From Callorhinchus milii (Eukaryota): a DNA stretch of 64,000 nt. Of this stretch, positions 1,649 through 60,606 are shown piece after piece. The stretch spans positions 132,000,001 to 132,064,000 of the forward strand of contig NW_024704742.1 in the NCBI RefSeq assembly GCF_018977255.1. Reading direction: 5' to 3'. The position numbers and the translations under genes were made by a program. Position 1 is the first letter of the stretch; every line of letters begins with the position of its first letter. The notes under the pieces are model-generated. The model was given only the letters and a program-made list of their open reading frames with translations, ran no database searches and was not told the origin of the DNA.

Positions 1649-1981
1649 TTTTTTTTGGTCAGCTGGGTGTCTGAAACATGCAGAAACCCCTCACCAGGCT
1701 TAAGAGTATCCAGCCAAACTGAGAATTCCATACATCCATCTACACATGGACATTTCAGAGATAGGTTGTTGGAATGGAATGCGCACGTATGAGGCGCAGG
1801 TTGGCAAGAGCCAAGGCTTGGGGACCCCAGATTGTGCAGTTGGGATACAGCTGGAGTCTACCAGCTAAAACCATATAGCTTGCCATTGCTGCTTCTCCAG
1901 CAATGGCACTGCTTGCTTTCCCACTGCTTGTCCAGCTAGGACCACCCTACCCGTTAGGGCTTTGGCTTGCAGGGTTGACAG
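1649..1981 (-). mobile_element. Family C: unclassified poly(A)-tailed retroposon, near full length
   Basis: Seven related copies in the window; on + strand T8-GGTCAGCTGGGTGTCTGA...GCAGGGTTGACAG. Confidence 0.8.
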
Positions 1982-2899
1982 GAGCATACCTTAACTATAG
2001 CTGGAACTTACAGAATCACAAATCCCTGTTGGTCTAAGCTCTGCCCACATGAGGAAAAAGACGAGTCAAGCAAATTAAAAATACTAGGGCCCATCAAAGC
2101 CAAAGGCAAAATAAACACCAAGTAATGATCCTGAATTACTTGGAGGATATTTTCAAGGGACAAAGAAAATGTATTATTATCCTAAAAGTGTTGAGAAAAT
2201 GCAGTAATTACAGTCTATTAGACTGAGTGGCAAATACCAAGAAGCTACTCGATACACTGAATCAATGAATGATCCAAATGATGTTGGTCGAGACACTGAG
2301 TGGTAATGCTGTCGGGTACTTATGCTGACATCAACACTTCAAGAACTTTAAGTAAACTTTTGTTTAAAAAGAGAAAGAGAGAGCAAGTGTGCATATATAA
2401 AGAAGGTCACGCCTGGGCAGTCCAATAGTCCAGTACTTAACGAGTTGTCGGATTCTCACTGAAGCACTCGGCAAAACACAAAACTCCACAGGAGCGATTT
2501 GGAGGCATTGAACATTTGTTTTCACTGTTGTAATGCAAGAATCCACTTATCAGACCACCCACCATTACACACACAAAAAGGTTTATTTTTCCATGCAGGT
2601 TGTGACCTAAATTTCCTCTGCAAACAGATCCATCCCACTGTACTGTAATAATAATAAATCCTTGCATTTGATATAGCGCCTTATTACCTCTTCGAGACAT
2701 GTCAAAGCGTTTCACAGAATATAGTGTAAAATGAATTGACTGTATATTTTGTGGGCAAAACTTTAAGTATGGCTATAATACTATATATGGATCAAGCAGT
2801 GGACTGAGGGAAACATCAAAAGCCAGAGCAATAGCTTCTACATTGCATTGTCTCTTGTCAAGTAGGCTCAAAACTAGCCCGTTTGTTTGTTGTAATAAC

Positions 2900-3286
2900 A
2901 GTAATAATAACAATAACACTTGCATTTGATATAGCTCCATATCCCGTTGATGAGACCTCTCAAAGTGCTTTACAGGGTATACTGTAAAGTGTATTTTGTG
3001 GGTGAAATGTCTTACAATAGTAAACGGTAGCCAGTTTGCACACAGCAGTGTCTCACAACCAGCTATAAAGTGACTGACCTTTTTTTATTTGGGGGATTAT
3101 TGGCCAGGACACCAGGAGAAACTTCTCTTTTCGATTTTAACATCCACATGAACAGGCGGACAGGACCTCAGTATAGCACCTCATCTGAAGGATGGAACCT
3201 CCAACAATGCAACACATCCCTAGGACTGCATTGGAGTGTCAGCTTAGACTATATAATTCCAACTCTCGACTTGGAAACATTTGAAA

Positions 3287-3321
<35 letters not shown>

Positions 3322-3335
3322 AAGGAACTAGGCCA
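2900..3335 (-). mobile_element. SINE-B
   Basis: Collinear with the other SINE-B copies. Confidence 0.82.
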
Positions 3336-3463
3336 GGACTGGAATTCAAAAAAAGAACTAAAGCTTAGTCTGTCTTCAACCGAGCTATCAAGTACCCTAG
3401 AAATGGAGCAATCTCGCTCAGAAAGATAATATGAATAGTTAGCTTAGAAAGTGAAAAGGTATA

Positions 3464-5990: not shown

Positions 5991-6026
5991 ATAAATTGGT
6001 CTTACCAACTTTAGTTATCTTCAGTT

Positions 6027-6460
6027 ATCAGGAGAGGCTAGAGACGCCAGGATTATTCTCCTTGGAGCAGAGAAGGTGAAGAGGAGACCTAATAGAAGTT
6101 TTCAAAATGATGAGGGGATTCGAAAGGGTGAACAAGGAGAAACTATTTCTACTGGCGGGTGGGTGGGTAACCCGAAGTCACTAATTTAAAATAGTTGTTA
6201 AAAGAAACAGAGGGGTGGTGAAGAGAAATTTTTTGCACAGCGAGTTGTTTGGATCTGGACTGCATTGCCTTAAAGGAAGCCAATTCGATAACAGCTTTTA
6301 AGAGAGAAGTAAATCATTATTTGGGGAGCGCAAGTTTGCAGGGCTATGGGGAGAGAGCGAGGGAGTGGGATTGAATTGGATAGCTCGTTCAAAGAGCCAG
6401 CACAGACACAGTGGGCCGAATGGCCTCCTTCCGTGCTATATAATTCTATGATTCTATGAT
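6027..6460 (+). mobile_element. CR1 LINE 3' end
   Basis: FSLEQRR.RGDLIEVFKMMRG motif; 3'UTR GGGCCGAATGGCCTCC; (ATTCTATG)n terminal repeat. Confidence 0.9.
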
Positions 6461-10655: not shown

Positions 10656-11551
10656 ATACAGAGTGATCTCTTTAGGACGAGACCTGACAGATTAATTTAC
10701 TTATCATCCGCCCTATTATTGGAAGATTCCTTAGCAAACGAGTGTCCACAAGCCACTTTAAGAAAAAGTGGGAAAAGCCAGCTACAAAAATTAAAAACAA
10801 ATTTAAGAATGTTCCTAAATCCTGCATGGTTTTCAACCAAGGGATTAAATAATAAAAATCCTTACATTTGATACCGCACATTCCAGGTCAGGAGGATGTC
10901 TTAAAGAGCTTCACAGGATATATCGTGAAAGTGTAGTAACTGTGTGTTTGTAGGTAAATTCAATCAAGGGGTAAAGAGAGTCAGAGTAACATAAGATGAT
11001 GCATTATTTTATTAAATTGAATTTTTGATATATTTTGCACCGACAGATGGACCGAAATTATTCCCCCGTCCCCTCTGAATACTGTACATTATAATCCTTG
11101 CATTTGATAAAGGACTTTCAATGTCCCTAGCCCTATCTTAAAAGAAGATTATAATGATTGAGCCTCTTGACTAACAATTTGGAAGACTAATCTTCACCTT
11201 ACCACAGTGAAGAAAATCATGTGCAAATCAAAGGATTGTTCTGTGGACAATAGATTAATCCTCCCTTTTCTGCCTTGGTGCCTATTAATGCTGCTGGAAC
11301 TATTATACATCCACATGCCTCTTTAGAGAAGCACCGAGAGCCTTTTTTGGACAAGACTATTTATAAGAGGTCACCGTTCTATATTTATTTGATCTTCATA
11401 TAATAACTAGCTTCACTCAGCTTAAATAGACATAAGACTATGCATACATTTCATTTGCTTTCATATCCTTACAATATACCGGCTGTCAGTAATAAAGCAG
11501 TGCCATTGCTGTAGACATTACTTATACCTGTACTGGATTTTACTACATGCA

Positions 11552-11918
11552 TTTTGATTTGGTCAGCTGGGTGTCTGATACATGCAGAAACCCATCGCCG
11601 TTCTTAGGAGTATCCAAACCAGACTGAATTCCATGTATTGTCATCTAAATGTGGAAATTTCCCTGGGATGCACCCTGCTTACCTAATTCCAGAGAGTGTT
11701 AAGTGCAGGTTGGTGAGAGCCAACAACAACAACAAATTACATTTGGATAGTGCCTTTCACATCAGGAGGATGTCCCAAAGCCAAGGATCAAAGTTTTGCG
11801 TTGAGCTAACTGCTAAAACTGGATAGTTTGGAATCGAGAACACTGTCTGGCAAGCTTCCGATGTTTGTTTAGCTAGGACCACCCTACCAGCTAGGGCTTT
11901 GGCTTGCATGGTTAACAG
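11552..11918 (-). mobile_element. Family C, near full length, with nested L2 tail (~11724-11778, AGCCAA duplication)
   Basis: Same two termini as 1649-1981. Confidence 0.8.
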
Positions 11919-12677
11919 TAGCTGTGCGGGAGGAATCCTACTCCCAGTGAATAATCTGCTACCAACAATTTATGCTGTTGACCCAAGCTTGCTTGTCTAT
12001 CACCCTGATGTTTTTAATGCTTAGGTACATATCCAGTTCCCTTGCAAAAAACTCCAATGATCCGGCCTCAACAGTCACCGATAGTAATAAATTCCAAAGT
12101 CTGACAACTTTCTGAAGAAATGCTTTCATACCTCTCTTCTAAATGTTCTCCTGGCAACGCCAACTTATATTTATATAGCACCCCACAAGCAGAGCAGTGT
12201 CTCAAAGCGCTTAATCAATGACAAAAACAATCCTGAGACTGGGACTCCTTATCACCATTTCTCCAACTAAAGAACCAAAGTCCGAAAGGCTTTTGCCTGC
12301 GTGTTGAAAATTTCTGGGTTTCAAATTAAATAACATTTTGAGGAGGATTCTAGCCTGATAGTTAAACATTTAATTTTTTTCAGCCCATGAGAGAGCAGAG
12401 TGTTCATCTCTTCTAGGCAAACAAACCCAGGTCAAGCAAAAATAAAAGCTAAAAAAATATAACCTGATGCTGCGTCTAAAATTTAGAAAATAGGAAATAC
12501 GATTGCTTTTTTCTGGGGTCAAAAACCAAATGGCGGCACTCAAACACTGAGTGGAGCAACCTTCCAAAACAACAACTTACATTTATATAGTGCCCTTCAT
12601 GTGGGGTAGTGTCCTGGAACACTTCCCAGGAAGAGGGACGCCAAATTCTGTTGTACCTCAATGCATTCCTTAAATAG

Positions 12678-13085: not shown

Positions 13086-13094
13086 AATAAGGAA

Positions 13095-17571: not shown

Positions 17572-17759
17572 TAATATCTCCATTGAATGGCGATATTACA
17601 TCAATTTAACCGCCATTCAATGGGGATATTAAATTGATGTAAAGATTGAGGCATATAAGATCTGTGCAAACATTCCTCCTTTATGGATCCGAGCTTCTGG
17701 GTAGTGCAGCGGAGTTGTTTCTTCCGGATGTTTTGCAAAGTCCAGAATCGATCAGAGCA

Positions 17760-20245: not shown

Positions 20246-20297
20246 GTTATTGAAAGCAAGTGTACCCTAAATGGTGGGTACACTTGCTTTCAATAAC
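20246..20297. repeat. Perfect 22-bp inverted repeat with 8-nt loop
   Basis: GTTATTGAAAGCAAGTGTACCC-TAAATGGT-GGGTACACTTGCTTTCAATAAC (exact coordinates). Confidence 0.95.
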
Positions 20298-20356
20298 ATT
20301 CTTAGATGGGTAACGCTCTCAAAGACATTGAGAAACAGCACAATCAAGGTTAAACA

Positions 20357-20710
20357 GATCACAAGATTGATTTGGATAAAGAAGACTCTTCGGTCCATCC
20401 AATCTCATCCCTCCAGAACACCCAACCTACCATCGGCCGATCACAGCATCAAGCTGTTTTTTAAATGAGTTCCCATAACTTTACCTCAACCACCCTTTCC
20501 TGGCAATCTGTTCCCATCATTAATTATCTTCTGCATAAAGAAAAACTTCTCGATGTCTCTCCTGAAATTGCCCTTTATAACTTTAAACCCACATCCTCTT
20601 CTACTGTCTTGTTGCATCCTAATTCATTAATCTGAGTTTACTTTTTCAATCCCATTTAAAACTTTATTCACCTCTATGAAATTCCTACTGATATGTCTTC
20701 TCTAAGTTGC
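20357..20710 (-). mobile_element. CR1 3' end (second subfamily)
   Basis: ATCACAAGATT...TTCGGTCCATCCAATCTCATCC tail, shared with 21808, 27283 and 58745. Confidence 0.7.
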
Positions 20711-21807
20711 AGATATATGCCGCTAAGGTGGTATGGTGTTTTATCACATCATCAAGATTGTCTCAAAGCGCTTCACAGGAGGGTGATTTTATGGGGAAAA
20801 TTCCTTTCAACTGTGTAACTATAGCATGAAATACTATTAGTGGTCACCATTGCCAGTTCAAGGCAATGCATCTGATGCTGAACGGAATTGTATCAAATTG
20901 GTAGCAACCCCCTAAGTAAATTAATTATTCACTTAATGGTTATTTGTGGGACATTACTGGGGGCAAACTGGCTGCTGCATTTCCCTACAAGTGCACAGTC
21001 ACTTCACTTTACTGCAATTAACTGTGAACCACTTCAAGACATTTGGGAGTCATAGATGCTGTGTCAAATATAAGGATTATTATTGTAGAAGTGGATATAC
21101 ATCTGGTTCTCTGAAAATACCCTGCCAGCCAGAGAAGTGGAGGAACATTCCATGATTGGGATTACTGAAAACAATTTTAGAATTATTCTGAAATTTACAG
21201 TGATTCATAATCATCACAAGGAATGCATTATGAAAGGCTGCACATTTCAGCCCATTGTTCTTAAAAAAAAGACAAATGAGATTTTGGCATTTATTTGGCA
21301 GGAGAATTGAATACTAAACCAAGGAAACAATGTTAAATTTATACCAGGCACTGTTTATACTGCAGCTTGGAATACTGCTCAGTTCTGGGAACTCTATAAT
21401 AAAAAGGATATGTCAATGTTCTCACAACCAGCCACGGAGTGAGTGACCAATTTTTTGGGGGGTGATTGTTGACCAGGACACTATGTGCAGAGAAGAGAAT
21501 GGTTATCAAGTCAAAACAGCTCCTAACCGATCATCTGTGTTTGCCCATATTCAAAGAATGGCAAAGTGCTTTTGATTTTCCTTTGTATAACTGGGCCAAA
21601 CCCACCAACACAGAATCAATAAACTTCTATAAACAAGAGCTATATGTCTTTACGTGTTTAATTAAGATTAATTAGAGAAGTCCAAAGGATATTAAACAAC
21701 AAGGATATGTCTTATTTTTCTTATTCTATCTTATTCTCGTCCTCTCCTGAATGCTGGATTCAGATCTCAGGTGGCAGTGTACAAAAGTTTACCAGAGATT
21801 GATGAGG

Positions 21808-27280: not shown

Positions 27281-29286
27281 TGCGATGAGAAGATAGGTAT
27301 TCTGGAAGGATGAGATCAGATGGACCGAAGGGCTTTCTTGATCCGAGCTAATCTTGTGACCTTGCAATCCATTCTCTCAGTGCAGTTTGCAAGATTTCTC
27401 AATATTATTTTTTTTTGCAAACAGCAGCTTTGTGGGGAGGTAAATGAAGCATCCTTCTGTCTCAAACGTATCAGCGGCTCTTTAAATTTCTTCAATAGTT
27501 GTAATTAAAAATTGATTTTAAGCAGACTTAATATTGTTCCATGGAATATAAAGGAGATTAATTATCTCATTAGTTATCCATCTGCCAATTAGCCAGAGGC
27601 AAGGTTCATGCCAGAACTGGCAATCCAAGGAAAAGTTATTTGCCAGCTTAGAGATAATACTTCTGCATTTGTTCCTTTGCCTACAATTTCCTTTGCCTTG
27701 AGGTATCAGCCTGGCTCAGTTGGTACGAGCCTTGTCTTTGACTCATAAGGTTGTGGGTTCAAGCTCCAGGTCAGGTTGGCTCTCCAGTGCAGGGCTGGAT
27801 GAGGACTATATTGCTGGAAGTGCAGTCCTACGATGAGATGATAAGACAAGGTTTTGATGGCCTGCTCAAGTGACATTAAAGATCCCACAACACCATTTGA
27901 AAAAGGGAAACATTTTCTTACCATTTCAAGACTTAAGGATGTCAGAAAATCAACTTCAAATTTAAGACCAAATTCAACTTTTTAGCAGAAAGTAGGAACC
28001 CAGTTGTTAGTCGATTGGCAGATCTCTTTTCAGGGTTAATAATCCCTCCCCTTGCGTGCCCCCCCTCCCAAAGAAAGATAAATGTAGTCAATCAATTCAC
28101 AACTGTTCATGGGACACTGCTGTGTGCAATTGGCTGCCATGTTTCGCCCACAAAATACACTTTAACAACAATCCACTTTAACAACAACAAATTACATTTG
28201 TATAGCACTTTTCAAATCAGGAGGATATCCCAAGGCATTGAAATACTTTACAATATAGTCTGTGAAACGCTTTGAGACGTCACAACGACCTGAAAAGGCG
28301 CTATATCAAATGCAAGGAATACTATGATAGTTATTATTATTTCTACAGGAGCTGAGAGGGAAGAATCCTTACATGATGTGGCCAGATGAGCTCTCAAAGC
28401 CCTACCAATGAGCCAGGCTGGCTGGTCTGTCATCAGCAGTGCTGAAAGCAAAAGCGGAATTTCTCTGCATCCAATGCAGTTTCTCAGTCGAGTACTGGGA
28501 ACGTATAGCTTGCTGTGCCATGAATGAGGAGGTGCTTAACAATCACTTCTAACTGATAGTTAGCAGTTAAGGCAGTTTTGAGAGTCAGGTTGCTTTTTAT
28601 ATCAGTACAAAAAGGGTACAGTTTAGGGAGTTGAATCAAACATGTTATGCAGACCATTGATTCTGAATAGCTTCATCAACCTCATCCCACTGAAAACTCT
28701 TAGAGCCCCAACCTAAATGCTCCCATGGAGGAGGTCAAGCAGAACAATTTTACTGGTAACAATTCAACACGTATAGAGAAGCAGATGAGAAAGCTGCTTG
28801 TTTACCCGTTTTAAAGGAAAGCTGTGATTCAAGCAATTTGTGAAAAAATACAATAGTAACATGTGGGGTAATGTTACAGAGATTGGTACTTTCCATGAGA
28901 TTTCTATCTTGCTGGGTACTTGACTTTGTGCTGTAGCACAGGAGGAGACACCAATCTCACCTGACAAGGATGAACTTCCAATTTCTCAGATGGCCCTATC
29001 ACTGCAGGGGAGGTGAAGGAGGCTGAAAAGGAAAAATGGGCAAAGCAGAAGTGCAGGCTGACACTCCAGTACTGTGCAGGGGGAGCGCAGAATTGTCAGA
29101 AGTACCAATCCTTCAGGTGATATGTCAATCTGTTTCCCCACCTGCCTGTTCAGGTGGATGTTAAAGATCCCATGACACTATTCAAAAAGAGAAGGGAGTT
29201 TCTCCCAGCGAAAGTAACAATTGCCCAGATAAAATTAGGGAATTTCTTTGAAACGTTCTCCAGACATGAAAGTCACTGTATCAAAT

Positions 29287-33988: not shown

Positions 33989-34239
33989 AGGATGAGTACA
34001 GTAGATTGTGACAGAAAATAAATGCAATAAAATTAGAGACTTCTTGTAGTTAACCAGGATAGTGTTTTTTTTTGTTTTCAGCAATGATTCTTGTCCATTA
34101 TAACAACAACAAGATTACATTTGTATAGCGCCTTTCACATCTTAATAATAATTAATAATAATAATACCGCATTACAATTCAATGTAACCCTGACATAAGA
34201 TGACTAGATCCATGGTAATGAGGAACAATAATAAAAACT

Positions 34240-36203: not shown

Positions 36204-36527
36204 GATGATCCCAGCCGGACAAGTAGCGGGAAAGCTTGCCGGACAGTGTTTTCAATGGCAAGCTATGTGATTTTAGCTAGTTAGACACAATTAGTACCCA
36301 AATGTATACTCTGAGATCCCCAAGCCAAACTGTGCCTAATACTTACCAGGATTAGGTAAGCCGGATGAGGCCCTCCAGGGAGAGAGAGTGGCACATTCCA
36401 TTCCAACAAACATCTCTGAAATTTCCATGTATTGGTGGGATGCACAGTACTCTCAGTTTGGTTTGGATACTCTTAAGCATGGTGATGGGTTTCCGGATGT
36501 GTCAGACATCCGGCTGACAAAAAAAAA
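36204..36527 (+). mobile_element. Family C, slightly 5'-truncated, A9 tail
   Basis: Ends GTGTCAGACATCCGGCTGAC-A9. Confidence 0.8.
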
Positions 36528-37923: not shown

Positions 37924-38283
37924 TTTTTTTTTGATCAGCTAACTGTCTGACACATGCAGGAACTCATCATTTTCAAGGGTATTGAAATCAGACTTCCACA
38001 CATGCCACCTCCAATGGGAATATCCCTGTGTTTGGAATGGAATGCACACTCTCTCACTAGAGGGACACACTCTGCTTATCTAATTCTGGAGCGTATTGGG
38101 CACAGGTTGTTGGAAGCCAAGTTCTTGGGGACCCCAGAGTGTGTGTTGGAGTAACTGCTGGATTATAACCAGCTAAAAAGAAATGCACAGCTTGCCATTG
38201 AAAGCAATGTCTGACAAGCTTCCTGCTGCTTGTCCAGCTTGGACTATCTGACCCATTAGAACTTTGACATGCAGGGTTAACAG
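37924..38283 (-). mobile_element. Family C, near full length
   Basis: T9 start on + strand; ends GCAGGGTTAACAG. Confidence 0.78.
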
Positions 38284-39214
38284 GACCTGTCAGTGACTGT
38301 TTGTCATTAATATAACGGGGTGAGCAGAATTTCAATTACATTTCTCATTATATAAACGTATCTGGATCAAACTTTTTTATTTGTTTTTGCAAATCGTGAA
38401 ACAAACATAAAAGCGAGTTGGTTCAATAAATGTCTAGCCACTCGCAGTACATGAGAGATGAGAAGTTGTTCCATCAATTCATGTTTTACAGGCTGGCAAA
38501 CCCAACAACAGGAGCCACTGAACACTTTATGAAGAATCTTATTCAGTCATTCATCACATATCCAAACCTGTCTGCCACTGCACAAGTCTGACCGCACTGG
38601 AGCCCAGCCCCTTTCTCTATTAGTGTGTTGCTTAATCCACTTTACCTTCCTTCAAACGACTTCTATATGAAAAAGTCACACAAATGTCATACCGTAGGGA
38701 GTGCTCTTCCGGGTTGGAGGATAAGACTCGCTATTGAACAGGAATGATCACAAGAGAAGATTGCATGAAAAAGACTCTTCAACCTACTTGATTTCCAGTT
38801 AGCCATGTCGCCATCCACCCACCACTTGTTTATTAGATGAATCCAGTGCATTTGGGAGCAGAAATTCTTCCCACTCAGCTCCTGCTAACCCAAGTCCTGT
38901 ATACCTGTTCAGGTGGATGTTAAAAATCCCATGACACTAGTTGAAAAGAGAAGGGAGTTTTTCCCGGTGTACTGGCCAACAATCCCCCAAATAAAATTAG
39001 TCACTCACTCCACGGCTGTTTGTGGGACACTGCTGTGTGCAGCTGGCTGCTGCATTTTGCTCCCCAAATTCACAGCCACTCCACTTTTGCTGTGAAGTGT
39101 TTATGTTATTGTGTCACGTGAAGTGCTTTGAGTCAGCTCAATAACATGATGAGGTGCTATATCAAATGCAAGGATTATTATTGTGAGGATCTTTGTAAAA
39201 TACCTTCTGGACAT

Positions 39215-40700: not shown

Positions 40701-41504
40701 GTGTCATGGGATCTATAAAGTCCACTGGAACAGGTAGATGGTACTTTGGTTTAACATTTCATCAAAAGGATGGCGCTCCGACCATGCAGCACTCCCCCAA
40801 TAGTATACTGGACTGTCAGCCTAGACTGAGTTCAAAGTTCCAACATGGGGCTTGAACCCACAACCTTCTGACTAAGAGGTGAGAGTGCTACCAACTGATC
40901 CAGGCTGACACCTAATATAATCCTCAAGTGAATTATACATTAATTCAACTCATCAAAACGTTTACTTGTTTGAAAACGGATCTTTGTTTGCTGCTTTAAA
41001 CTGTTCATGTTTTATTTTAAATGCAATCTTTATTAAAAAGAATAGAATTTATGATCTGTTTTTTCCTCTCCTTTAACGTGGCAGACAATACAAGCTTGAA
41101 ATCAGGACTGATCCCAGTTTGCATTTAATGTACCACTGCAACAATCTATATTCTTATTCCTTTTTTTCATAACAAAGTAATGATTTATAATGTGATTGGA
41201 AAGCAAACCCTGCTGTTCGAATATCTTAATAAGGGCAAGAATCCAACAATGCCATTTGTATAATGCCTTGTTCATGATGCTTGAAACAATGGGGGTAAAA
41301 GACGTTGGATTTCTTAACCTGTTCCTTATTGTTCATTTGCAATCCTCCCTTTTGTTTTGGGTCAGACAGATGTTCGATCTGAATAGCAACCCATCACAAA
41401 AACAGATTGAGTTTTATTATATTATTATAATATTATAATTATAATAACATAATAATAAATGATAAATAAATATAATAATAAATAATGTAATAATAAACAC
41501 ACAT

Positions 41505-42258: not shown

Positions 42259-43384
42259 CAATACAAATGCCTGGCGTTGTTCTTGAATGCAGGAGATCAC
42301 AGCTGCATTGTTCTAAACTAAGAATAGATTGCAGTTTTTTTTTAAAAAGTCAGTGTCAGTGACAGCATTGCTAACTACGTAATGAACAATAAACTGCTAA
42401 AACTCATCTGTAATAGGCAGCAGTGTAAAGGAATTCCCTTTGGACAAATTATTTTATATTGAGATTTTGTTTAATGCTTCCGAATATAGGTCCCTGTGTA
42501 GCAGTGTGACATTAATTTACCATTGCCTGCAGTGGTTGGATGGTAAGAACAAACAAGGCGAGCCTGATTTCTTTTCGAGGAGTGGAGGGATTTGAGATAA
42601 TATTAGTAGCCACAGCTGCAAGACAATTAAAATGCACAGCATTACTTGAGCAGGAATGTGGACGAAATCCAAACGCTCTGAGGGTTCAAACTTCAGTTCG
42701 TCTCTAACCTACTATGCCAAAGGCTTTCTAGGAATTAGGGCACGAGCACAATACATTAAAATGCATGTTGAAGTCTAGGGTTATCACTCTAATTCCTTCC
42801 TGGGGGGTGTCGGAGGTGCTGTTCTTCGGATGAGATGTTAAACCAGATGGACCTCAAAGATTCCATGGCACTAATCGAAAAGAGAAAGGAATTTCTGCTG
42901 GTGTTCCAGTCAATAATCAGTCGATTTATGCTTGATAGTTGAATCCACAGGTAATTGAAGTCGTGAGTCATGTATTAGAGCTTGTCCCAAAGCAGAACTC
43001 AGGTCTCTAATATACCACAGAACTTCCGCAAAAGTTTGCGACAATTGAAGTCACTGACAACCCAGATTCCACACTTACCTACAGATTTAAAGAAGATCCA
43101 ACAGGTGAAGGTCACATGGATCACCTCAAAGCATATCAGTTCCTACATCTTTCGCCATGGAAAACAATGGGAGATTCCTATGGAAAGGTATGGAAAATAA
43201 TGGGAAGCTATCAACTGAGCCAGACTGACACGCAACAGGGATCGAGATCTGGTGGCGTGCCATTCACTGATAACTCAGGGTCATCAAACTGTGCAGCACC
43301 CAAACTGTCAACTGGGGTCAAGCTCGTCTGGGACTTCTTCAGCTTGGTGTGGCTGTTTCGTGCTGAAGGTTGGCTTTCTCAATT

Positions 43385-43403
43385 AAGCCACCAGGGGAGC
43401 TAT
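43385..43403 (+). promoter_or_regulatory. Candidate CTCF-binding motif
   Basis: AAGCCACCAGGGGAGCTAT versus the core CCACCAGG(G/T)GGCGC; lies in unique sequence. Confidence 0.45.
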
Positions 43404-44107
43404 TGTTTGCACAGCTTGACTAAAATCGTATTAGTTACCTGCAGACCAGCCAGCTGAGGAGAAAATAACTCCTAGCACTTAACATGCAAGAAATTGCGCG
43501 ACGTGAAAGGGAGATTATAAACCTCAGCATTAAATATTTAGGCATCGCGATGCACTCAGCTCTCTTTCTGTAAACTATTAACACATAAAAGAAGGATCGG
43601 ATGAGGCACAGGAGACACTGTGACTTGGCAGGTCAGCAGCAAGAGTTAGAACAACGAGGGATTGAGAAGAGAACTGGAGAAGGGGGGAAAAAAAACACTT
43701 TGAGTGGATGGTTAGCAGGCTTGAAATAACATGGCCCAACCTTCACTTGTTACATCCATCTGATCAATGAGGCAGAAGTGGAACCATTTGCTAACAAATA
43801 AAAGAACCCAAAAGGACTCGTTTTTTTTTTAGCTTACACATATATTCGCTGTGTGGCAATTTATTTTTCTCGAGCTAAGTCGACAGCTTCAATCATGTGT
43901 CCATAACCCTGCAGTACACAGATTACAAACGCCGAGCTGATTGGAATTATCTCAGTGAAACGTCCTGGGATCGAAAGCCAAACCACAGCAGGAAAATCAA
44001 TTTCTCAATAAATCACCAGCAGAATAACTGAATGTTTAAAGGAACAATAGCCTGTTCAGGAGGAAGTTAAAGATCCCATGGCATATTCAAAAGAAAAAGG
44101 GGCTTCA

Positions 44108-45995: not shown

Positions 45996-46576
45996 CAAAG
46001 CTATTGCTCTAGTTCCAAATGAAACACTTTTCCATGTCCACCCCACTGACCTCCTTCTTGGTTTCGAAAACTTGAATGCCTTCCCCTTGTCTTCGATTTT
46101 CCAATAAGCACAGGTTGAACCTTTTTGGACTCTAAGAAATCTCTGTGGCCTTCTTTTGAAACCTTTCCAACATCTGGGAGCTGGTACATCTAATAAGGGA
46201 GATCAATAGTACCCCTTTCCACTGGTTGGTTTCGATGTTTGGAATATATTCGAATCCCTTGTGGAAAGAGGAATGCGCTGATGGTTAAGGATCAGGACTT
46301 TTGATATTTGAAACATGACTGCATATTGTGTGGATCACTTCAGATAGAAACGGAGCACTCTCTGTTTATATAAGGTTCTATTGATTCCAGCTCAAGGTAA
46401 CTGCCTTGATCATTAGGAAGGAATAAACAAACAGTGAAGATCGAAGGAGACAGCAAAAGAAATGACAAAAGAAGCAGGTTAGTTTGGAGGCAATACAGTG
46501 TGAGAGACTTGAATGCTCAGTGCACCTATAATGCAATCACTACTTTCTAGAATAATAATCCTATGCATTTGATATA

Positions 46577-46627
46577 TTTTTGGTCAGCTGGGTGTCTGAC
46601 ACATGCAGAAGAGTACCCAAACCAAGA
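46577..46627 (-). mobile_element. Family C, extreme 3' end
   Basis: T5-GGTCAGCTGGGTGTCTGACACATGCAGAA. Confidence 0.7.
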
Positions 46628-52082: not shown

Positions 52083-52175
52083 AGTGCAAATGGGCTCAAA
52101 GTATAGATTTTATAATGTTTTACTTTAAGAGAAATGCACCATGGGTCGGGGTGAACAAATTGCTGTGCGTGAATT

Positions 52176-52312
52176 GATAATTAACACTGGTGATGACTAT
52201 CATGGGTACGTGATGTGACAGTTGCCACTGGTAATGATTGTCATGCAGTATGTGATGTGATAATTGTCATCAGTGATAATTATCATGTAGTATATAATGT
52301 AATAATTATCAC
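52176..52312 (+). repeat. Degenerate ~42-bp minisatellite, ~3.3 units
   Basis: GATAATTAACACTGGTGATGACTATCATGGGTACGTGATGT / GACAGTTGCCACTGGTAATGATTGTCATGCAGTATGTGATGT / GATAATTGTCATCAGTGATAATTATCATGTAGTATATAATGT. Confidence 0.75.
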
Positions 52313-52739
52313 ATCTCAGTCTGCACTCTATGTATTCTGCTAAGAACATAATTGTAACTCCATTTTGAGTACAGTTCCTTAATTATCCCCAGCAATAATT
52401 AATGAACGGAATTGATTTAGAAATACATCAATGAATATTAAGCATGTGCAGTATTGACATCTATTATGATATTGGATTGGGATAGCTGATTGAGATAATA
52501 AAACTAATAATCCTTATATTTGACCATCTTGGCTCATCGATAAGACTAGAAGGAGCAAACCGGTCACCGGGGTTAGGGAATCTTCCACTTAGCTCCTGTT
52601 GACCGTGCAAGCCAAATAATAATAATAACAACAACTTGCACTTATATAGCACCCCCCACGCAGGGTAGCATCTCAGAGCTCTTAACAGTGGCGGAGGCTG
52701 ACTCCAAGCTGGCGGCAGGGTTGGGTGGGGAAGTGGCCG

Positions 52740-53030
52740 TAAAGGGAATTAACTGTGTATTTTGTGGGCGAAACACGGCAGCCAATTGCGCACAGCAGTG
52801 TACCACAAACAGTTGTGGATTGAAGTGACCAATTTATTATTTTTTTAAAGCAATTTTTACCCCCTGAAAAGCCATCTGCCAATTGACTAACAACTGGATT
52901 CCTACTTACTGCTAGGTAAAGAGAAGTGTGTGGAGTAAGGAAACTTGCCCAACATTTTGCTCAGGCGGGAATCAAAACCAGGTGTCTCGCTTGCAAGGTG
53001 AGTGCTCTAACCACTGAGCTACAGGTCTCC
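52740..53030 (-). mobile_element. SINE-A whose tail is replaced by an L2 3' end (~52616-52740)
   Basis: Head and body present; adjoining sequence is an L2 terminus with (TAA)/(CAA) repeats. Confidence 0.8.
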
Positions 53031-53042
53031 ACAAATCAGTAA

Positions 53043-53339
53043 TGGTTTGGATGGTCCGAGCTGGACAAGCAGCAGGACGCTTGCCAGATTATGCTTTCAA
53101 TGATGAACCATGTGGTTTTAGCTGATTAAACTCTAGCAGTTACCCTAACGCACACTCAGATCCTGAAGCCATGGCCCTTGCCAACCTGTGCCTAATACTC
53201 TCCAGAATTAGATAAGCAGGGTGCATCTCTCCATTTCCATGTGTAGTTGAAATGCATAGAATCCCAGTCTGGTTTGGTATCTCTTAAACACGGTGATGGG
53301 TTTCCATATGTGTCAAACACCCAGCTGGCCAAACAAAAA
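53043..53339 (+). mobile_element. Family C
   Basis: GGTCCGAGCTGGACAAGCAGCAGG...CACCCAGCTGGCC followed by an A-rich tail. Confidence 0.78.
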
Positions 53340-53710
53340 TATAGCACCTTATCAAATTGTTAAAACATTTCATAACGCTACACAGAATTTATTGTAAAGT
53401 GGAGTGACTCTGTATTTGTAGACAAACAACATAGCCAATTTTCACACAATTATGTCCCACAACAGTGAATGACCAATTTTTTTTCTGGGGGATTGTTGAC
53501 CAGGACACCGAGAAAACAATATTTACAAATAGTACCATGGGATGTTTAACATCCGCTTGAACAAGCAGATAGGATATCAGTTTAATGTCTCATCCAAAGG
53601 ATGGCGCCTCTAAATATGCAGCAAATCCCTCAGCACTGCCCTGGAGTGTCAGCCTGGGCTGTGAACTTAAAGTCCTGAAGTGGGGCTTGAACCTGAAAAC
53701 TCTAACCCAG
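53340..53710 (-). mobile_element. SINE-B
   Basis: Core and most of the head present. Confidence 0.8.
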
Positions 53711-54930
53711 GCACGAGTGTGTCAGCCTGGCGCTGTTGGTGGCACCTCAGACATGATGCAGTTACAACAAAAGCTTACCACTGCAGTCAAGAGAGGAGAA
53801 GCTGTAAGGAAAAGAAACCTTGGTAACCAGCACATTGCATGGTGAAAGTGATCTTCAATGCAGTGTGCTTGCTCTGAATGAATTAATTTGGCCTGGGATG
53901 TGGTATATTTCATCAGAATATGTAAAATGCGTATACCCTGTGCTCCCACTGAATAGCTAACTTTTTTAAAAGTGAAATTGACTTGTTCAAAATGTTGGTA
54001 GCTAACATATTTCTTTGGAGATGGCACAAAGAGAAAAGGTTTGATTTTTCTTCCCCCTTCCTATGCAACTCACTTTTGAGACTAGGGATAAAGGATATCG
54101 TAAGTCACTACGCAACAGGCATCACAAAGTTAACCTTGCTCTGGCGCTGTTTACAGAAATAATGCCTACATCAATAGTGCAGGAACAAAGCTGCCTCTGG
54201 TGTTTGAATCAAACTGCCAGAGGCAATTAATTCCTCTTGTAATGGCCCTGAAATGGAAATTGAAACGCGTTATGCACAAGGATAGCCCATCTGGAGCGCA
54301 ATATCCAACCTCCAGAGTCCTGTTTTGTCTGTTGCCTCATACACTGAAGTGCCAACAGTACCTTTTAAAGGAAGCTAGGTGCTATTAAATTTGGCTTTTA
54401 GGTGCAATTGAAATATGGCTTTAAGAGCTGTATTGGAAGTTGCAGTATTGCAGTATTCTCGTAAAAAAACATCAACTTTTGTAGCAACTTTTAAAGTATT
54501 TTTGCTTAGAGAGGGTGAATATGTAATTAAGTCAAATGCAACTCACTGTACAGCAGAGATAACTTAGGCAATGAGGCTTTTGACTCCTGTGCCCCATTTA
54601 TATTGCCGTGAGCAATTTGGAATCTCCTTCCAGCAGTAACACAAATAGAAGCAGAAAGCAACACTCACCAAGGACTGAGGAGAATATCTGAGTATGTTCT
54701 AATAGGTGCCAAACTCCACACGCCATGTTGATTATAGTACACCCTGGTATAACACGGGTCACACTCCAAATGATAATAACCCAGGCTAAATAATAATAAT
54801 CCTTGCATTTGATACAGCGGTTTATCACGTTGGTGAGAAATCACACAGCACTTCACAGGATTTTACTGCAAAATGTAGGAACTGTGTAGGCAAATACAGC
54901 AGCTAATTTGTGCACAATAATGTCCCACAA

Positions 54931-55753
54931 ACAACAACAACAACAAGATTCCATTTATAAAGCGCCTTTCACGTCAGGAGGACGTCCCAAGGCGCTGCAC
55001 AGTTGGATCATGACCCGAGCAGGGGGGAAATGGTCAGGGTGAGGGAGGGAAGGGAGGGAGCGAGGAGGGGGGAAATGGTCAGGGTGAGGGGAGGGAAGGG
55101 AGGGAGCGAGGAGGGGGAAGAGAGTCGAGAGGGGAGCTGAAGGCTCGGTCAAAGAGAAAGGTCTTGAGACCGGCCTTGAAGGAGGAAAGGGAGGAGGCGG
55201 CGAAGCCACTGGGGGATAGAGTTCCAGAGCCTAGGGGCTGAGAGGCTGAAGGCCCGGCCACCGATGGTAGGGCGGTTGGGGCGGGGGATGTGGAGCAGGC
55301 CGGAGCCAGAGGAACGGAGGGTACGGGTAGGTAGGTAGGGGGATAGTAGGTCGGAGAGGTAGGGGGGAGCAAGGCCGTGAATGGCCTTGTAGGTGAGGAT
55401 GAGGATCTTGAAATCGATCCTCTGGGGGATGGGGAGCCAGTGGAGGCGAGCGAGGGTGGGAGTGATGTGGTCGCGAAGCCTGGTGCGGGACAGTACACGA
55501 GCTGCAGAGTTCTGAATGACCTGCAGCTTGTGGAGGGAGGTGGCGGGAAGGCCGACGAGGAGAGAGTTCCCATAGTCCAGCCTTGAGGTGACAAAGGCGT
55601 GGACCAGGGTTTTAGCAGCGTGAGGGGTGAGGTAGTGCCGTAGTCTGGCGATGTTCCGGAGGTGATGGAAGGCGGTGCCAGTTGTGGTGCGGATGTGAGG
55701 GAGAAAGGACAGCTCAGGGTCGAACAAAACGCTGAGGTTCCTGACCGGCTTTG
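54931..55753 (-). mobile_element. Young L2 3' fragment (~820 bp) inserted in a SINE-B
   Basis: ORF 55149-55772 (VRNLSVLFDPELSF...[10 protein letters not shown]...LHWLPIPQRIDFKIL); near-identical to the 31128 copy; (CAA)n at 54931. Confidence 0.94.
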
Positions 55754-56301
55754 AAGTGAATGACCAATTCAATCTGGGGAATTGTCAGCCAGGACATCGG
55801 GTGAAATTCCTTTCTCTTTTCAGAGGGCATCAATGGATCCTTAACACTGGCCAGAAAAGACACATACAGGTTAACGTCTCAAGCAAAGGACGGCACCTCC
55901 GACAATGCAACGCTCCCCAGCACTGATTGGTTGGCTTCCTGTGTATAGCACACACACGCACACACACACTCACACATGCAGGAAGTGATGTAAGTATCAA
56001 CTTGATATCCCAGAAGGCAGCGCTGACCGGTGGCCATTTTTTAGTACACCAATCAAAATGTGGGTTCAAACTACCATGTGGTAACGGGCTTAGCCTGCAG
56101 TTTGCTGTTTTTTTAATGTTAAAGAGCCAGGAGTGCCAGCAACGTTTTAATAACATAACAATAAACATTATGGGGGTCATGCCTAGAGCAAATGTGAAAA
56201 GGGTTTTGCACCACCACTTTATACTGCGCCGGGCGGGGAAGGGGGGGATCACTTTCCTGGTTAAAATCATCTCCTGGAGGTAGCTTCAAGTCGTTTTTTT
56301 T

Positions 56302-56540: not shown

Positions 56541-58744
56541 AGGGACATGCAGTTTCTAACCCTATCCCTTGAACGCTGGAGGTAATTTCAGGAAGTTTCC
56601 CCTTTTTCCTCTTCTGGGGTTCAATCTTCAATACTGTTAAGCGCTCTGAAGTGCTACTCCCATGAAGGGCGCCATGTAAATGCAAGCCAGTGTTGTTGTT
56701 GACACTTCCGACAGCTTTGTTCCCATGTCGTAAAAACAAATCCAATTTACACTCAGTTCTTAATGTCAATTCAGGCCATTAAGGAGACAATCAGGCACAT
56801 GTAATTTCGCTTTGATTTATTAGTCATTGTAATGGTTTTCTTGTACTCTTTATTTCTCCTTTACACTCCTCCTCCCCCACATATCTACATGCTTACGATG
56901 CCTGAAATAACAATACATTCCCATTTCCATTTATACAGCGCCTTTCATGTCTGGAGGGAGTCTCAAGGCGCTGACTGAGAGGCTACTAACTGCCTTCAAG
57001 ACCCACATCATACCTTTGAACTCACATAACCTACACTGACATACCAATTCTGTGATGGGGGAGTGCTGCATTGTCAGATGCTGTGCTTTGGATGAAAGGT
57101 TAAACCGAGAGCCAGTTTGTCTGCTTAGGTAGGCGTTAAAAATCTCATAGCGCTATTTGAAAAGAGAAGGATGGTTTCTACTGGTATACTGACCAACAAT
57201 CCCACAGACAAAAATTGGTCATTCACTTCATGGCTCATGGTGGAGGGGTCGAGGCAGGAGCGGGATATGAACTACGAATATGATTTGAATTGTGCTAAAG
57301 ACATTGGGGAAGAATTGAATTGAAAAATAACGTGGTAAATGAATACCTGGTACAAAGTTTTAGCCAAAAAATACAGTCAATCATAAAATTTTCAATACAA
57401 GATATAAAATTTTTCGCCCACAAATTATACAGTCAGTTCTCTTTATAGTATATTTGTGTAGCGCTTTGAGACGTCTCAACGACGTGCTGAGACGCTATAT
57501 CAAATGCAAGGATTATTATTAATATCATAAAAAACTTTATGTCTATGTTGGCTGTGGGCAATTTGTTGACTCTGCTTATTATACTGGAGCTGGTGCAACG
57601 ACCAACCGCTTACATACTAACTTGGGTCAATGTCATTCAATACAGACTTATGTGAAGTTTTGGATCCTCCACAGTGCAAATTTAGCAATGGGAATTTTAA
57701 CAGAGTATAATGGGAGCACAAGTACGAAGGGGCACCTTTCACAAACACTTATCTATTTTGCCCTGCAGGAATAAGTATAAAAAGCACATAAACAAACCCA
57801 ACTCTTAAAATAAATGTAACTCCATCACGTCTCTGTATAAAGGATTTTTTAAAAAAAACAAAGCTCAGTGATACAGGGGAATGCATTATTATGATCGCAT
57901 TACAATAAACCTTTCTAAACACAAAAGCAACTGGATGAAATGACTTAACATTTAATTAAATGAGACTAATTAAAAACAGACCAAATAAGTCAAGCCCACA
58001 AAAGATTAGACTTATCTAGAAGAGCAGGGATCCCAACAAACATCAGAGGAGCTGTGTGAACCAGTCTTGTCGTCTGACTTCTCTTCCCCTCCCTCCCCTC
58101 CCCTGATAAAGTTTATTGAGGTCAAAGGTAACAAATTAGGCAAATTTATCTTCCAACCCTATGAGAAATTTCATCTAGAAATGCATTTAGGGCTTCTGAC
58201 AATAGATTAATAAGCAATTACAATTTACAACATGCTGTCTGTTGAATATTCTGTGAAAATTATATATTAATATAAGCGTATTCCCATAAAGACATTCTGA
58301 AAAAAACAGCTTATAAATAGACCAATTGAATTTCTTCACTTTAAGAAACATATGTCCTTCTATTATAAAATCACTGGCGTAGAATATTTACTCCCAATAG
58401 ATACAATACGAAGCCAAAATCTGTATCAGATGAAGAACACCAACAGCACCAACTTTAATAATAATCGTTGCATTTGATATGGTGACTTATCATGTCGTTG
58501 AGACACCTCAAGGCTTTTCGCAAGATTCTCATGTGAAGTGTATTGGCATCCAGCTCTTTGGGACATCTTCCTGATGTAAAGGGCGCTATACAAATATGAT
58601 TTGTTGTTGTTGTGTACGCTGCAACCAATTTGCACACGGCAATGTCGCACAAAGTAGCCATGAGCAGAATGGCCAAACAATACTCAATCTCTTCCATTTT
58701 TTGCTTTAAAATATTGCAACAAATTATTTCTCACAAGACTACAA

Positions 58745-59300
58745 GAGAGATTTGAGTCAATGCTTTAGAATGAATCAAGACAGTATAACAGAACCATTGG
58801 TTTTGAATTGTAAAGGGCAATTTTAGGAAGTTACTTTTTATGCAGAGGGTAATCAACAATTCAAACAGGTTGCAGGAAAGGTGGTAGATACCAGGACATT
58901 AGACTCATTTTAAAAGCAACTTGATGTTGTGATGAGGGGATGGTAGGGTGGGTGTTCTGAAGGGATGATGTTGGATGGGCTGAACTGCCTTTTTCATTGA
59001 ACGAATCTTGTGATCTTGTGAAAAAGGCCATTTGGTCTATTTCATCCCCACTTGACCTTCAGCCTACTCTCCTCCCATAACAGCATGAAGCTATTTCTTA
59101 AAAGCCCTGGTTTGACCATCCTTCCTAATAACCCATTCCAATGTTGATTCACCTTTGTGGAAAGAAATACTTCCATTGTGGTGTCTGTCCTTTAATTTCC
59201 CTTTGCAATCCTGAAGATGTGCTCTCTTGTTCTGCTGCCTTGGCATATCTGAAAATATTTTTCTGGGTTTATTCTCTCAATCCTATTTAGAATCTTATAT
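58745..59300. mobile_element. Two CR1 3' ends joined tail-to-tail (+ 58745-59022; - ~59025-59300)
   Basis: GGATGGGCTGAAC...TCTTGTGATCTTGTGA, followed by the reverse-orientation GGCCATTTGG...AGAATCTTATA. Confidence 0.65.
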
Positions 59301-59302
59301 AA

Positions 59303-59762
59303 CCTGGCTGAATTGGTAGCACTCTTGCCTCTTAGTCATAAGATTGTGGGTTCAAGTTCCATGTCATGACTCAAACTCATATAGTCTAGGCTGACATGCC
59401 AATGCAGTGCTTGGGATGTGTTGCATTGTCGCAGGTGCCAACCTCTGATCCTTAGGATGAGACAGCAATGTCCCACAAACAGCCACAAAGTGGATGGCCA
59501 AATGTATCTGGGGGATTTTGGCCAGGACACAGAGAGAATCTCCGTTCTCTTTCCAGTAGTGCTATGGGATCTTTAGCATCCATCTGAACAGGCAGACAAG
59601 AGCTTGTTTTTCAGTTTCATCCAAAGGACATTACGTACAAAAATGCAACTTCATTGATGTGTCAGCCTAGCGTTGTGAGTTCAAAGTTCTGACATGAGGC
59701 TTGAAACCCACAACCTTCTGACTCAAAAGCAAGAGTGTTACCTACTGAATCAGGCTGTCACC
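59303..59762. mobile_element. Two SINE-B 5' portions fused in inverted orientation (+ 59303-59462; - 59463-59762)
   Basis: Heads at both outer ends; junction GATGAGAC|AGCAATGTCCC. Confidence 0.8.
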
Positions 59763-60517
59763 TAAATTATTTTCGTTTGAACCACTTTAACCTGCACCCA
59801 GAGCTCATATTCACAACAGCAACTCCTCTCTCACTGGAACCAGCTTTCATGATGCAGTCTTCCTTCAGCATAATCCTTATATCTACTATTTCTTTACACG
59901 GAGAGTAATTAATGACTGGAACCAATAGCTGAGACCAGGATGCTGGGTCTCATTTAAGAAACAGCTTGATGTTACAACAGGAAGATGGCAGGGTGGGTGT
60001 TCTGGAAAGATAATATAAAAAGTAATATAATCCTTCCATTTGAAATAGCTCTTTTCTCGTAAGGAGGCTGCCTCAGTGCTTTGCAAGATTTACCGTAGAG
60101 AGTAGAGCCAACATATATTGTACTGCAGCCAATTCAGACAACCAGCAATGTCCAATAAATAGCCATGAAGTGAATGGTCAGTTTTATCTGTAGGATTGTT
60201 GGCCAGGAGAAATTCTCTTTTTTTTTAACAATTTTTTTTTAACAAAATTATAATTTGCTCACTCAATCCATGACTGCTTGTGGGACACTGCTGTGCGCAA
60301 TTGGCTCTGTCGCGTTACGCCCACAAAATATAGTCAACTCAATTTACAATATATCCTGTGAAGCACTCTGAGACGTCTGTAAAGTGCTGTATAAAATGCA
60401 AGGATTATTATTGCTATAAACTCAAAGTTTAGTAGTAGTGGCTCTACAGCACAGAACGAGGCCATTCGGTCCCTCGTGCCTGTGCTGGCTCTTTGAAAGA
60501 GCTATTCCACTGCAATG

Positions 60518-60606
60518 CTGGATGGAATTCTCAGTCTGGTTTGGATACTCTTAATCATGGTGATGGGTTTCCGCATGTGACAGACACCCGGCTGACCAAA
60601 ACAAAA
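60518..60606 (+). mobile_element. Family C, 3' end only
   Basis: GGAATTCTCAGTCTGGTTTGGATACTCTTAA...CACCCGGCTGACC followed by an A-rich tail. Confidence 0.78.

What the first reader, a model, noticed from the sequence alone, without database searches (positions are those of the whole stretch)
1649..60606. Family C: abundant unclassified ~350-nt poly(A)-tailed retroposon with a defined 5' end and a 3' stem-loop
Seen: seven copies (1649-1981, 11552-11918, 36204-36527, 37924-38283, 46577-46627, 53043-53339, 60518-60606). All keep the 3' end GTCAG-ACACCC(A/G)G-CTGAC(C), a terminal stem-loop, followed by an A-run. Four copies are 5'-truncated. Three copies start at the same point (CTGT(T/C)AACC(C/A)TGCA..), which implies a fixed transcript start. 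I see no convincing B box, no ORF, and no L2- or CR1-type tail; every other retroposon here ends in a microsatellite. Inference: a non-autonomous retroposon or retroposed structured ncRNA moved by a poly(A)-using LINE absent from this window. Only a weak tRNA-Leu-like GGTAGGGTGGTCC(G/T)AGCTGG segment near the 5' end hints at its origin. I do not recognise it.
Basis: partly seen in the sequence, partly recalled or inferred. Interest (0 to 1): 0.72.

Follow-up and report, generated by a model that had tools for sequence, protein, structure and literature searches.

The report
Old A-tailed SINE with decayed head

Summary
Contigs of four public runs continue upstream with one shared sequence (566, 195, 18 and 464 contigs). 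In the window, c2 and c6 extend about 73 nt further; c6 is interrupted by later SINE insertions, not truncated. Two extra head-only fragments also exist. The unit is about 450 nt. It has a tRNA-like head with an A box in tRNA register but no canonical B box, a hairpin-rich body with a second, weaker tRNA-like segment, a 5-bp 3' hairpin without covariation, and 5-9 A. About 23,000 contig pieces of one DNA run lay on it, and a second species carries it. Best reading (0.6): an old tRNA-derived SINE moved by an unidentified poly(A)-ending LINE, in an elephant-shark-type genome. It is not CmiSINE or SacSINE1-CM; only half of the UCON3 domain resembles it. Repbase and Dfam could not be searched. An earlier scan note on this genome (e1-7812807) calls a similar-sized hairpin repeat a LINE 3' UTR; whether it is the same family is untested. 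Interest is modest.

The parts
1649..1985 (-). Copy c1, starts at about position 69 of the unit; internal 46-nt deletion and 9-nt insertion; 8-A tail at 1649-1656
11552..11992 (-). Copy c2, full length (5' end 11992, possibly up to 12002); upstream flank looks like a CR1 ORF2 end
11724..11778 (-). 55-nt L2/SINE-type tail inserted into c2, with AGCCAA duplicated (11718-11723 and 11779-11784); not part of family C
36206..36527 (+). Copy c3, 5'-truncated at about position 111; keeps CpGs in the 3' hairpin loop
36197..36205 (+). Left copy of a 9-bp target-site duplication TTTTCCAGA of c3 (right copy 36531-36539)
   Evidence: 3 of 1000 random flanks score as well
37924..38303 (-). Copy c4, reaches about position 35-43 of the head with a deletion of about 22 nt in the head end
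46577..46627 (-). Copy c5, short 3' fragment with internal deletion; the only exact copy of the 3' hairpin (46583-46600)
52522..52616 (+).
   Evidence: profile E 6.7e-22, partly circular
52617..53031 (-). Later insertions that split c6: an L2-type tail and a CmiSINE-type element; not part of family C
53032..53339 (+). Body and A tail of copy c6
52495..52521 (.). Left half of the older SINE tail into which c6 inserted (25 of 29 identical to a reference tail); the right half is 53340-53354. Fixes the 5' end of c6 independently; no duplication longer than 1 nt
60518..60606 (+). Copy c7, 3' 89 nt
28345..28422 (-). Head-only fragment (positions 1-77), cut by an inserted SINE tail; new
38846..38891 (+). 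Head-end fragment joined to a 5'-truncated DeuSINE; new
52530..52540 (+). A-box-like TGGCTCATCGA at positions 9-19 of c6; counterparts at 28405-28415 (-) and 11975-11985 (-), 60-61 nt upstream of the CAGCTCC anchor
38157..38173 (-). T-arm-shaped hairpin in the body (5-bp stem, 7-nt loop, A in place of the invariant C); counterparts 53121-53137 (+) and 1850-1865 (-, 6-nt loop); preceded by a T4 run
   Evidence: read consensus

Best explanation
Family C is an old, high-copy SINE of about 450 nt in a chimaera (elephant-shark-type) genome. Its 5' 70 nt are a decayed tRNA-derived head, followed by a unique hairpin-rich body, a short 3' hairpin and an oligo(A) tail. SHOWN: dispersed copies, polarity, hard 5' limit, A-box-like motif in tRNA register, no coding capacity, no L2/CR1 tail, mutual nesting with L2-type SINEs, presence in two species. 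INFERRED: a few source copies were transcribed from position 1, most likely by RNA polymerase III with help from flanking sequence or the internal second tRNA-like unit, because the head's B box is defective. The RNA was bound at its 3' hairpin and A tail by the protein of a poly(A)-ending LINE and inserted by target-primed reverse transcription, giving full-length and 5'-truncated copies with variable or no target duplication. The partner (L1/Tx1, Zenon-type CR1, Vingi/Ingi or I/Nimb) is unidentified. The family is now dead or nearly so.
For: HARD 5' LIMIT: c2, c6 and the 28345 fragment lose homology within about 10 nt of one another. 7 of 9 pieces start in the first 111 positions, and none is shown to extend further. 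A random-truncation model with approximate bins gave at most 1.2e-4. c6 splits an older SINE tail exactly at that point. HEAD HOMOLOGY: anchored three-way test 3 of 5000 random triples. TGGCTCA lies at the same offset in 3 of 3 heads, post hoc probability about 2e-6. Relaxed ARAGORN places a tRNA at 1-85 of the consensus. RETROPOSITION: shared sequence stops at the A run (loose-end agreement 0.35 against 0.49-0.79 inside the family); c3 is 5'-truncated with a 9-bp duplication. ABUNDANCE: 22,960 contig pieces in X1 and 14,195 in X17 (organism B) lay on c1 at 80% or more. AGE: mean pairwise identity 71.5% (5 copies), between CmiSINE 74.7% (7 copies) and DeuSINE 65.5% (20 copies). PRECEDENT: A-tailed tRNA SINEs with an A-tailed CR1-group partner exist in hagfish (PMC7245038).
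Against: The tRNA call is weak. Rfam finds no tRNA on any copy or head scanned. ARAGORN finds none at thresholds 85-100, and at 80 it also hits 39 of 200 shuffles. Unanchored pairwise alignments of the heads are marginal (619, 87 and 17 of 2000). The best B-box match has 3 or more mismatches in 2 of 3 heads and a misplaced 2-mismatch hit in the third; the read consensus lacks the GTTC core too. A T4 run, a possible polymerase III terminator, is kept in 5 of 5 long copies. A target duplication was found in only 1 of 7 copies. A weak signal persists 70-110 nt upstream of the anchor (16 of 5000). No partner LINE was found.
Confidence: 0.6

Rival explanations
1. The repeat is the 3' UTR of an old LINE (L1/Tx1- or Vingi-like), or an internally deleted bipartite derivative of one. 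Copies are 5'-truncated LINE tails, and the apparent head is UTR sequence where reverse transcription tends to stall.
For: A tail, no B box, internal T4 run and mild structure (z -0.3 to -2.6) fit a polymerase II LINE RNA. Two unchecked earlier notes on this genome describe abundant A-tailed or hairpin-rich repeats (630 and 833 letters, 6-7 copies per window) as LINE tails, and no separate unclassified repeat of that density was seen in this window. Bipartite non-autonomous LINEs are known for RTE, Ingi, Vingi and R2 (PMC5786205). An ORF-like CR1 end abuts c2.
Against: Three copies stop at one point with an A box in tRNA register. Their upstream flanks are unrelated (CR1 remnant, SINE tail, unique DNA). 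Read depth shows no 3' excess: 72,000-100,000 at 1660-1707 against 150,000-270,000 at 1916-1979 in X1 (depth is confounded by c1's own changes). The Vingi 5' ribozyme motif and the RTE 5'-UTR motif have 0 matches at 3 mismatches. No HDV-like fold could be drawn by eye.
Confidence: 0.22
2. The copies are retroposed from a structured non-coding RNA gene with an upstream (vault/7SL/tRNA-Sec-like) promoter at one master locus. The RNA would be a two-tRNA-like molecule with its own function, and the copies would be pseudogenes.
For: An A box without a working B box is what a gene with upstream promoter elements would show (established knowledge, recalled). Several hairpins recur in the copies. Consensus folding z is -2.1. 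The copies have short A tails.
Against: No Rfam family matches. There is almost no covariation: 2 of 23 predicted pairs and 0 of 5 in the 3' stem. 10^4 or more copies with subfamily-like variants (for example two letters near 50% at 1923 and 1953) suggest several source copies. The listed pieces of the RNA-guessed runs lie inside longer contigs, which shows no discrete RNA.
Confidence: 0.12
3. The element is a non-autonomous rolling-circle (Helentron/Helitron2-type) DNA element read in the other direction, starting with a T run and a terminal hairpin.
For: The A/T run is uniform (8-9 nt in 6 of 7 copies), and c6 has no duplication. An imperfect inverted match links the segment at about position 115 to the 3' end, 8 of 8 in c3. 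Features of these elements are recalled, not looked up.
Against: c3 is truncated on one side with a 9-bp duplication. The other end is not T-flanked and carries an A box. The elephant shark mobilome is almost only retroelements (PMC4350176, passages).
Confidence: 0.04

Closest known systems
SINE2/tRNA class, A-tailed members such as hagfish EptSINE1B/1C moved by A-tailed CR1-7_EBu (PMC7245038)
   Same: tRNA-like head, unique body, short A tail, no microsatellite
   Different: No Meta domain; tail sequence unlike CR1-7_EBu by eye; B box not canonical; partner unknown
UCON3_CM (elephant-shark SINE, Jurka 2016, cited in PMC7245038) and the UCON3 domain
   Same: CCACTCAGC directly after the head, at a similar position (about 64-72), matches the first part of the UCON3_CM domain as printed in Fig. 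S2 (comparison by eye)
   Different: The distal half of the domain has 0 matches in the window at 3 mismatches. Only the 53-nt domain of UCON3_CM was visible, not the whole entry
CmiSINEs (SINE2-1_CM = SINEX-1_CM, SINE2-1B_CM) and SacSINE1-CM (PMC5499810; PMC3747384)
   Same: Same genome type, similar age, nested in both directions with family C; the first 20 nt of the 28345 head resemble the DeuSINE head (2 and 4 of 500 shuffles for two of three DeuSINE heads, 44 of 500 for the third)
   Different: These have intact B boxes, CORE or Deu bodies and an L2-2_CM tail; none of their profile hits overlaps family C
Bipartite non-autonomous RTE, Ingi and Vingi derivatives (PMC5786205)
   Same: Short, non-coding, may lack a polymerase III promoter
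   Different: No Vingi ribozyme or RTE 5'-UTR motif; tail is oligo(A), not an RTE trinucleotide repeat
LF-SINE and AmnSINE2 (recalled, not tested)
   Same: About 450-500 nt, tRNA head, long unique body, A-rich end (from memory)

Membership tests
SINE2 (tRNA-derived SINE) | Dispersed, short, non-coding, high copy number | tested here: met
   9 pieces in 64 kb; 22,960 contig pieces in X1; no ORF
SINE2 (tRNA-derived SINE) | Defined 5' end at the start of a small-RNA head | tested here: met
   3 copies end within about 10 nt; c6 host tail split at that point; only window copies, no genome-wide count
SINE2 (tRNA-derived SINE) | A box in tRNA register | tested here: met
   1-2 mismatches to the recalled consensus at positions 8-19 in 3 of 3 heads
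SINE2 (tRNA-derived SINE) | B box 30-90 nt downstream | tested here: not met
   No canonical match in heads or read consensus; a one-mismatch T-arm-like hairpin lies about 180 nt downstream
SINE2 (tRNA-derived SINE) | Head significantly similar to a tRNA | tested here: inconclusive
   Rfam none; ARAGORN only at threshold 80, where 39 of 200 shuffles also hit
SINE2 (tRNA-derived SINE) | Insertion by target-primed reverse transcription (A or repeat tail, 5' truncation, target duplication) | tested here: inconclusive
   Tail and truncation in the copies; duplication in 1 of 7
SINE2 (tRNA-derived SINE) | 3' tail shared with a partner LINE | not testable with these tools
   No genome held; none in the window; none among the 24 loose-end rows shown of about 1200
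SINE2 (tRNA-derived SINE) | Transcription by RNA polymerase III | not testable with these tools
   Only contigs were available; no holder on record as RNA
CORE-SINE / CmiSINE | CORE body and L2-2_CM tail | tested here: not met
   0 of 62 CmiSINE profile hits overlap family C
DeuSINE / SacSINE1-CM | Deu domain | tested here: not met
   0 of 56 hits overlap; the join at 38891 was seen in 1 of the 20 DeuSINE 5' flanks printed, of 47 hits
MetaSINE | Meta domain | tested here: not met
   One 19-nt motif of the consensus: 0 matches at 3 mismatches; whole domain not aligned
UCON3-domain SINE / UCON3_CM | Whole 53-nt UCON3 domain after the head | tested here: not met
   First 9 nt match by eye; distal motif 0 matches; the proximal motif hits only the 38871 fragment among family pieces, 6 hits against 1.9 expected
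V-SINE (HE1) | V domain and CR1-type tail | not tested
   No V consensus was visible in the passages read; the CR1 tail is absent
Vingi/Ingi/RTE bipartite element | 5' end of a LINE with HDV-like ribozyme or RTE 5'-UTR domain | tested here: not met
   One motif each, 0 matches at 3 mismatches; Rfam no ribozyme; divergent members could be missed
Any named Repbase or Dfam family | Consensus match | not testable with these tools

The most novel reading that the evidence does not exclude
A holocephalan retroposon family of 10^4-10^5 copies built from two tandem tRNA-like units, both with defective B boxes, plus a half UCON3-like domain. It would have spread from an undescribed structured RNA gene with an upstream promoter, using a poly(A)-ending LINE (for example a Zenon-type CR1 not yet reported in chimaeras) that recognises the 3' hairpin. 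It would be a SINE that amplified without a working internal polymerase III promoter.
Probability: 0.12. Interest if true: 0.62.

Novelty: new member of a known kind. Interest (0 to 1): 0.3.

Why it matters
If the best reading holds, it adds a third major SINE lineage to a genome where the literature read here treats two L2-driven families (PMC5499810) and mentions UCON3_CM. It shows that a poly(A)-ending LINE was active beside L2 and CR1 for a long time. The family covers about 2.1 kb of this 64-kb window, so masking it matters for annotation, and shared insertions could serve as chimaera phylogenetic markers. Only the missing B box would interest SINE specialists more widely: it would ask how a SINE reaches tens of thousands of copies without a canonical internal promoter.

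Tried and rejected
No whole genome is held, so the genome-wide consensus, partner-LINE search and master-locus search could not be run. Exact-pattern scans found nothing: viral contigs 0 and 0, metagenome contigs 0 and 0, prokaryote genomes 0. Sequence look-ups in earlier findings gave 0 hits three times; at 70-75% identity between copies this is uninformative. No RNA holder was listed; runs X5 and X7 are only guessed to be RNA and were contigs, so expression was not assessed. Rfam at E up to 10 on c1, c2, c3, c4 and two heads gave only sub-threshold hits; the c5, c6 body and c7 regions were covered only at gathering threshold. SINEX-1_CM was considered: it is SINE2-1_CM. Resemblances to vault RNA, Y RNA, tRNA-Sec, tRNA-Ser and tRNA-Leu were recalled and got no Rfam support. 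A target preference for SINE tails (c5, c6, perhaps c2 abut such tails) was not supported by the read consensus beyond the A run. The idea that family C is the 3' UTR of the CR1 next to c2 was rejected because the other two full heads have other flanks. The repeat at 20356-20662 and kin was checked as a partner candidate and looks like another CR1 end in reverse (by eye). Ten paper searches gave no description of this family.


Full report
Setting. The window is repeat-rich vertebrate DNA (41% self-matching) with L2 and CR1 remnants, tRNA-Ala-headed SINEs and DeuSINEs. The best-matching public runs hold 886-963 million letters of contigs. This fits the elephant-shark repeat landscape described in PMC5499810 (parts 1-3 of 6 read; supplement not available) and agrees with unchecked earlier notes on this genome. 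No assembly was available.

Observation. All seven copies exist and are related at 67-86% identity. The 3' motif is exact in 1 of 7 copies and has 1-4 mismatches in the others. The 5-bp stem is fully paired in 3 of 7, and tails hold 5-9 A. The stem shows no compensatory change (0 of 5 pairs) and the last 90 nt fold no better than shuffles (z -0.9 to +1.0), so the hairpin is plausible but unproven. There is no ORF and no overlap with L2, CR1, CmiSINE or DeuSINE profiles.

Laying contigs of four runs on window 1612-2080 at 80% likeness placed 22,960 (X1), 4,959 (X5), 388 (X7) and 14,195 (X17, organism B) pieces on c1. Beyond position 1985 the loose ends share one 30-letter consensus in all four runs (566, 195, 18 and 464 contigs; agreement 0.62-0.77). 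Beyond the A run they share nothing (0.35). The flank of c2 matches that upstream consensus, and c4 matches it with a deletion. Searching the window with these flanks found three more pieces: 52522-52616, 28345-28422 and 38846-38891. The first is the head of c6, separated from its body by an L2-type tail and a CmiSINE.

Evidence for a true 5' boundary. In the three copies that reach it, homology fades within about 10 nt of the same point. An anchored test of the 42 nt upstream of the read-derived block gave 3 of 5000 random triples. The next 40 nt gave a weak 16 of 5000 and the 40 nt after that nothing (1470 of 5000), so the end is uncertain by about 10 nt. Copy c6 lies inside an older SINE tail whose halves flank it (25 of 29 and 14 of 16 identical to a reference tail), which fixes its start at 52522-52523. 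Seven of nine pieces start within the first 111 positions. A geometric truncation model with approximate bins makes this pattern unlikely for a longer element (at most 1.2e-4); that test is post hoc, and an extension present in only one copy would be invisible to me.

Anatomy. Positions 8-19 carry an A-box-like motif in tRNA register in 3 of 3 heads (the box consensus is recalled). The place of the B box reads roughly GCAGGGA(A/T)TCTTCCC in reads and copies and lacks the GTTC core. Rfam finds no tRNA there. ARAGORN does so only at a relaxed threshold that 39 of 200 shuffles also pass, although it places the hit at 1-85. Directly after the head, CCACTCAGC matches the first part of the UCON3_CM domain printed in PMC7245038 (supplement 1 read whole; main text part 2 of 4 and passages; supplement 2 part 1 of 2). 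The distal half of that domain is absent. The last has T-arm geometry (5-bp stem, 7-nt loop) in c4, c6 and the read consensus, with A for the invariant C. The background is 0.011 per 490 nt for the read-consensus grade and 0.1-0.9 for the grades seen in window copies, so a second tRNA-derived unit is only a lead. A T4 run precedes it in 5 of 5 long copies.

Mobility, number and age. A 9-bp duplication flanks truncated c3 (3 of 1000 random flanks; about 2% over seven copies). None was found in the other six, also with corrected ends for four of them. Summed depth in X1 is 3,000-459,000 over the element against 8.6 on the unique flank; the tool warns that this is no copy number, so I take only an order of 10^4 or more. 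Window density would give about 10^5 if typical. Mean pairwise identity (71.5%) lies between CmiSINE (74.7%) and DeuSINE (65.5%) copies of the window, and nesting runs both ways: family C inside a SINE tail at c6, SINE tails inside c2 and c6. With the dates in PMC5499810 (peaks about 105-163 and 200-226 million years), activity in between is an inference. Organism B carries the family. One of its contigs spans 1956-2080 with 16 differences, 30 letters inside c1, one short of the tool's bridging rule, so a shared insertion is likely but not shown.

Mechanism. The most likely reading is a tRNA-derived SINE copied by a poly(A)-ending LINE (0.6). Transcription by polymerase III and recognition of the 3' hairpin are inferred, not shown; the defective B box and the T4 run count against efficient polymerase III transcription. 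Candidates for the partner come from papers and notes only. Zenon elements are the poly(A)-tailed CR1-group lineage, reported in sharks, rays, coelacanth and hagfish, with chimaeras not listed (PMC13343379, passages). Hagfish has A-tailed SINEs paired with an A-tailed CR1. Earlier notes report L1/Tx1-like and Vingi-like tails in this genome. The strongest rival (0.22) is that family C is itself such a LINE tail; note e1-7812807 describes a hairpin-rich 630-bp repeat at similar density, and I could not compare sequences. Bipartite Vingi or RTE origin (PMC5786205: parts 1-4 of 5, supplement part 1 of 15 and two searches) found no motif support.

Comparison and verdict. It works like a SINE. Membership in SINE2 is met for size, dispersion, 5' boundary and A box, not met for the B box, and open for tRNA homology and partner tail, so I do not file it as a canonical SINE2 but as a probable degenerate member of the SINE kind. 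It is not CmiSINE, SacSINE1-CM, a MetaSINE or a full UCON3-domain SINE by the tests above. Other papers were seen as passages only: PMC3747384, PMC4824008 (supplements listed, not read), PMC4350176, PMC5753468, PMC6887750 and PMC13708176. Ten searches found no description of the family, but Repbase, Dfam and SINEBase were out of reach and an abundant family in a well-studied genome may well be catalogued. Unseen supplements (PMC5499810, PMC4824008, most of PMC5786205) could bear on this. Interest 0.3.

Noticed in passing
window 31072-34141 (-): Near-full L2 element with long APE and RT reading frames (364, 325 and 244 aa stop-to-stop, broken by frameshifts); close 3' relatives at 54930-55754 (90%) and 26675-27174 (97% to the former)
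   Followed up: no
window 38846-39193 (+): A family C head fragment is joined to a 5'-truncated DeuSINE at a shared TAACC-like stretch; not seen in the other 19 DeuSINE 5' flanks printed, so probably a one-off
   Followed up: partly
window 11992-12140 (-): A CR1 ORF2 end runs directly into the 5' end of c2 in the same orientation, and no CR1 3' UTR follows the A tail; possible template-switch chimera or insertion with deletion
   Followed up: partly
window 46535-46577, 52495-52521 with 53340-53354, 11535-11555: c5 and c6, perhaps c2, abut the same few bases of L2-type SINE tails; may be a weak target preference or the tail-on-tail seam of note e1-7932148
   Followed up: partly
window 41351-41398 (-): Weak match to the family's 3' end with an A-rich tail (E 0.49); possibly a very decayed tenth piece
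   Followed up: partly
window 17572-17631, 20246-20297, 29844-30002: Three self-inverted stretches (81%, 88%, 75%) not assigned to any repeat family
   Followed up: no
window 52161-52312: 41-42-bp minisatellite, about 3 copies
   Followed up: no
window 20356-20662, 21806-22119, 58759-59021, 27283-27370, 59949-60006, 38745-38845: A second CR1-like 3'-end subfamily, distinct from the 6167-6459 type (assigned by eye)
   Followed up: partly
window 43011-43457 (+) and 39178-39628: Stop-free frames of 110-148 aa outside the self-matching repeats; not identified
   Followed up: no
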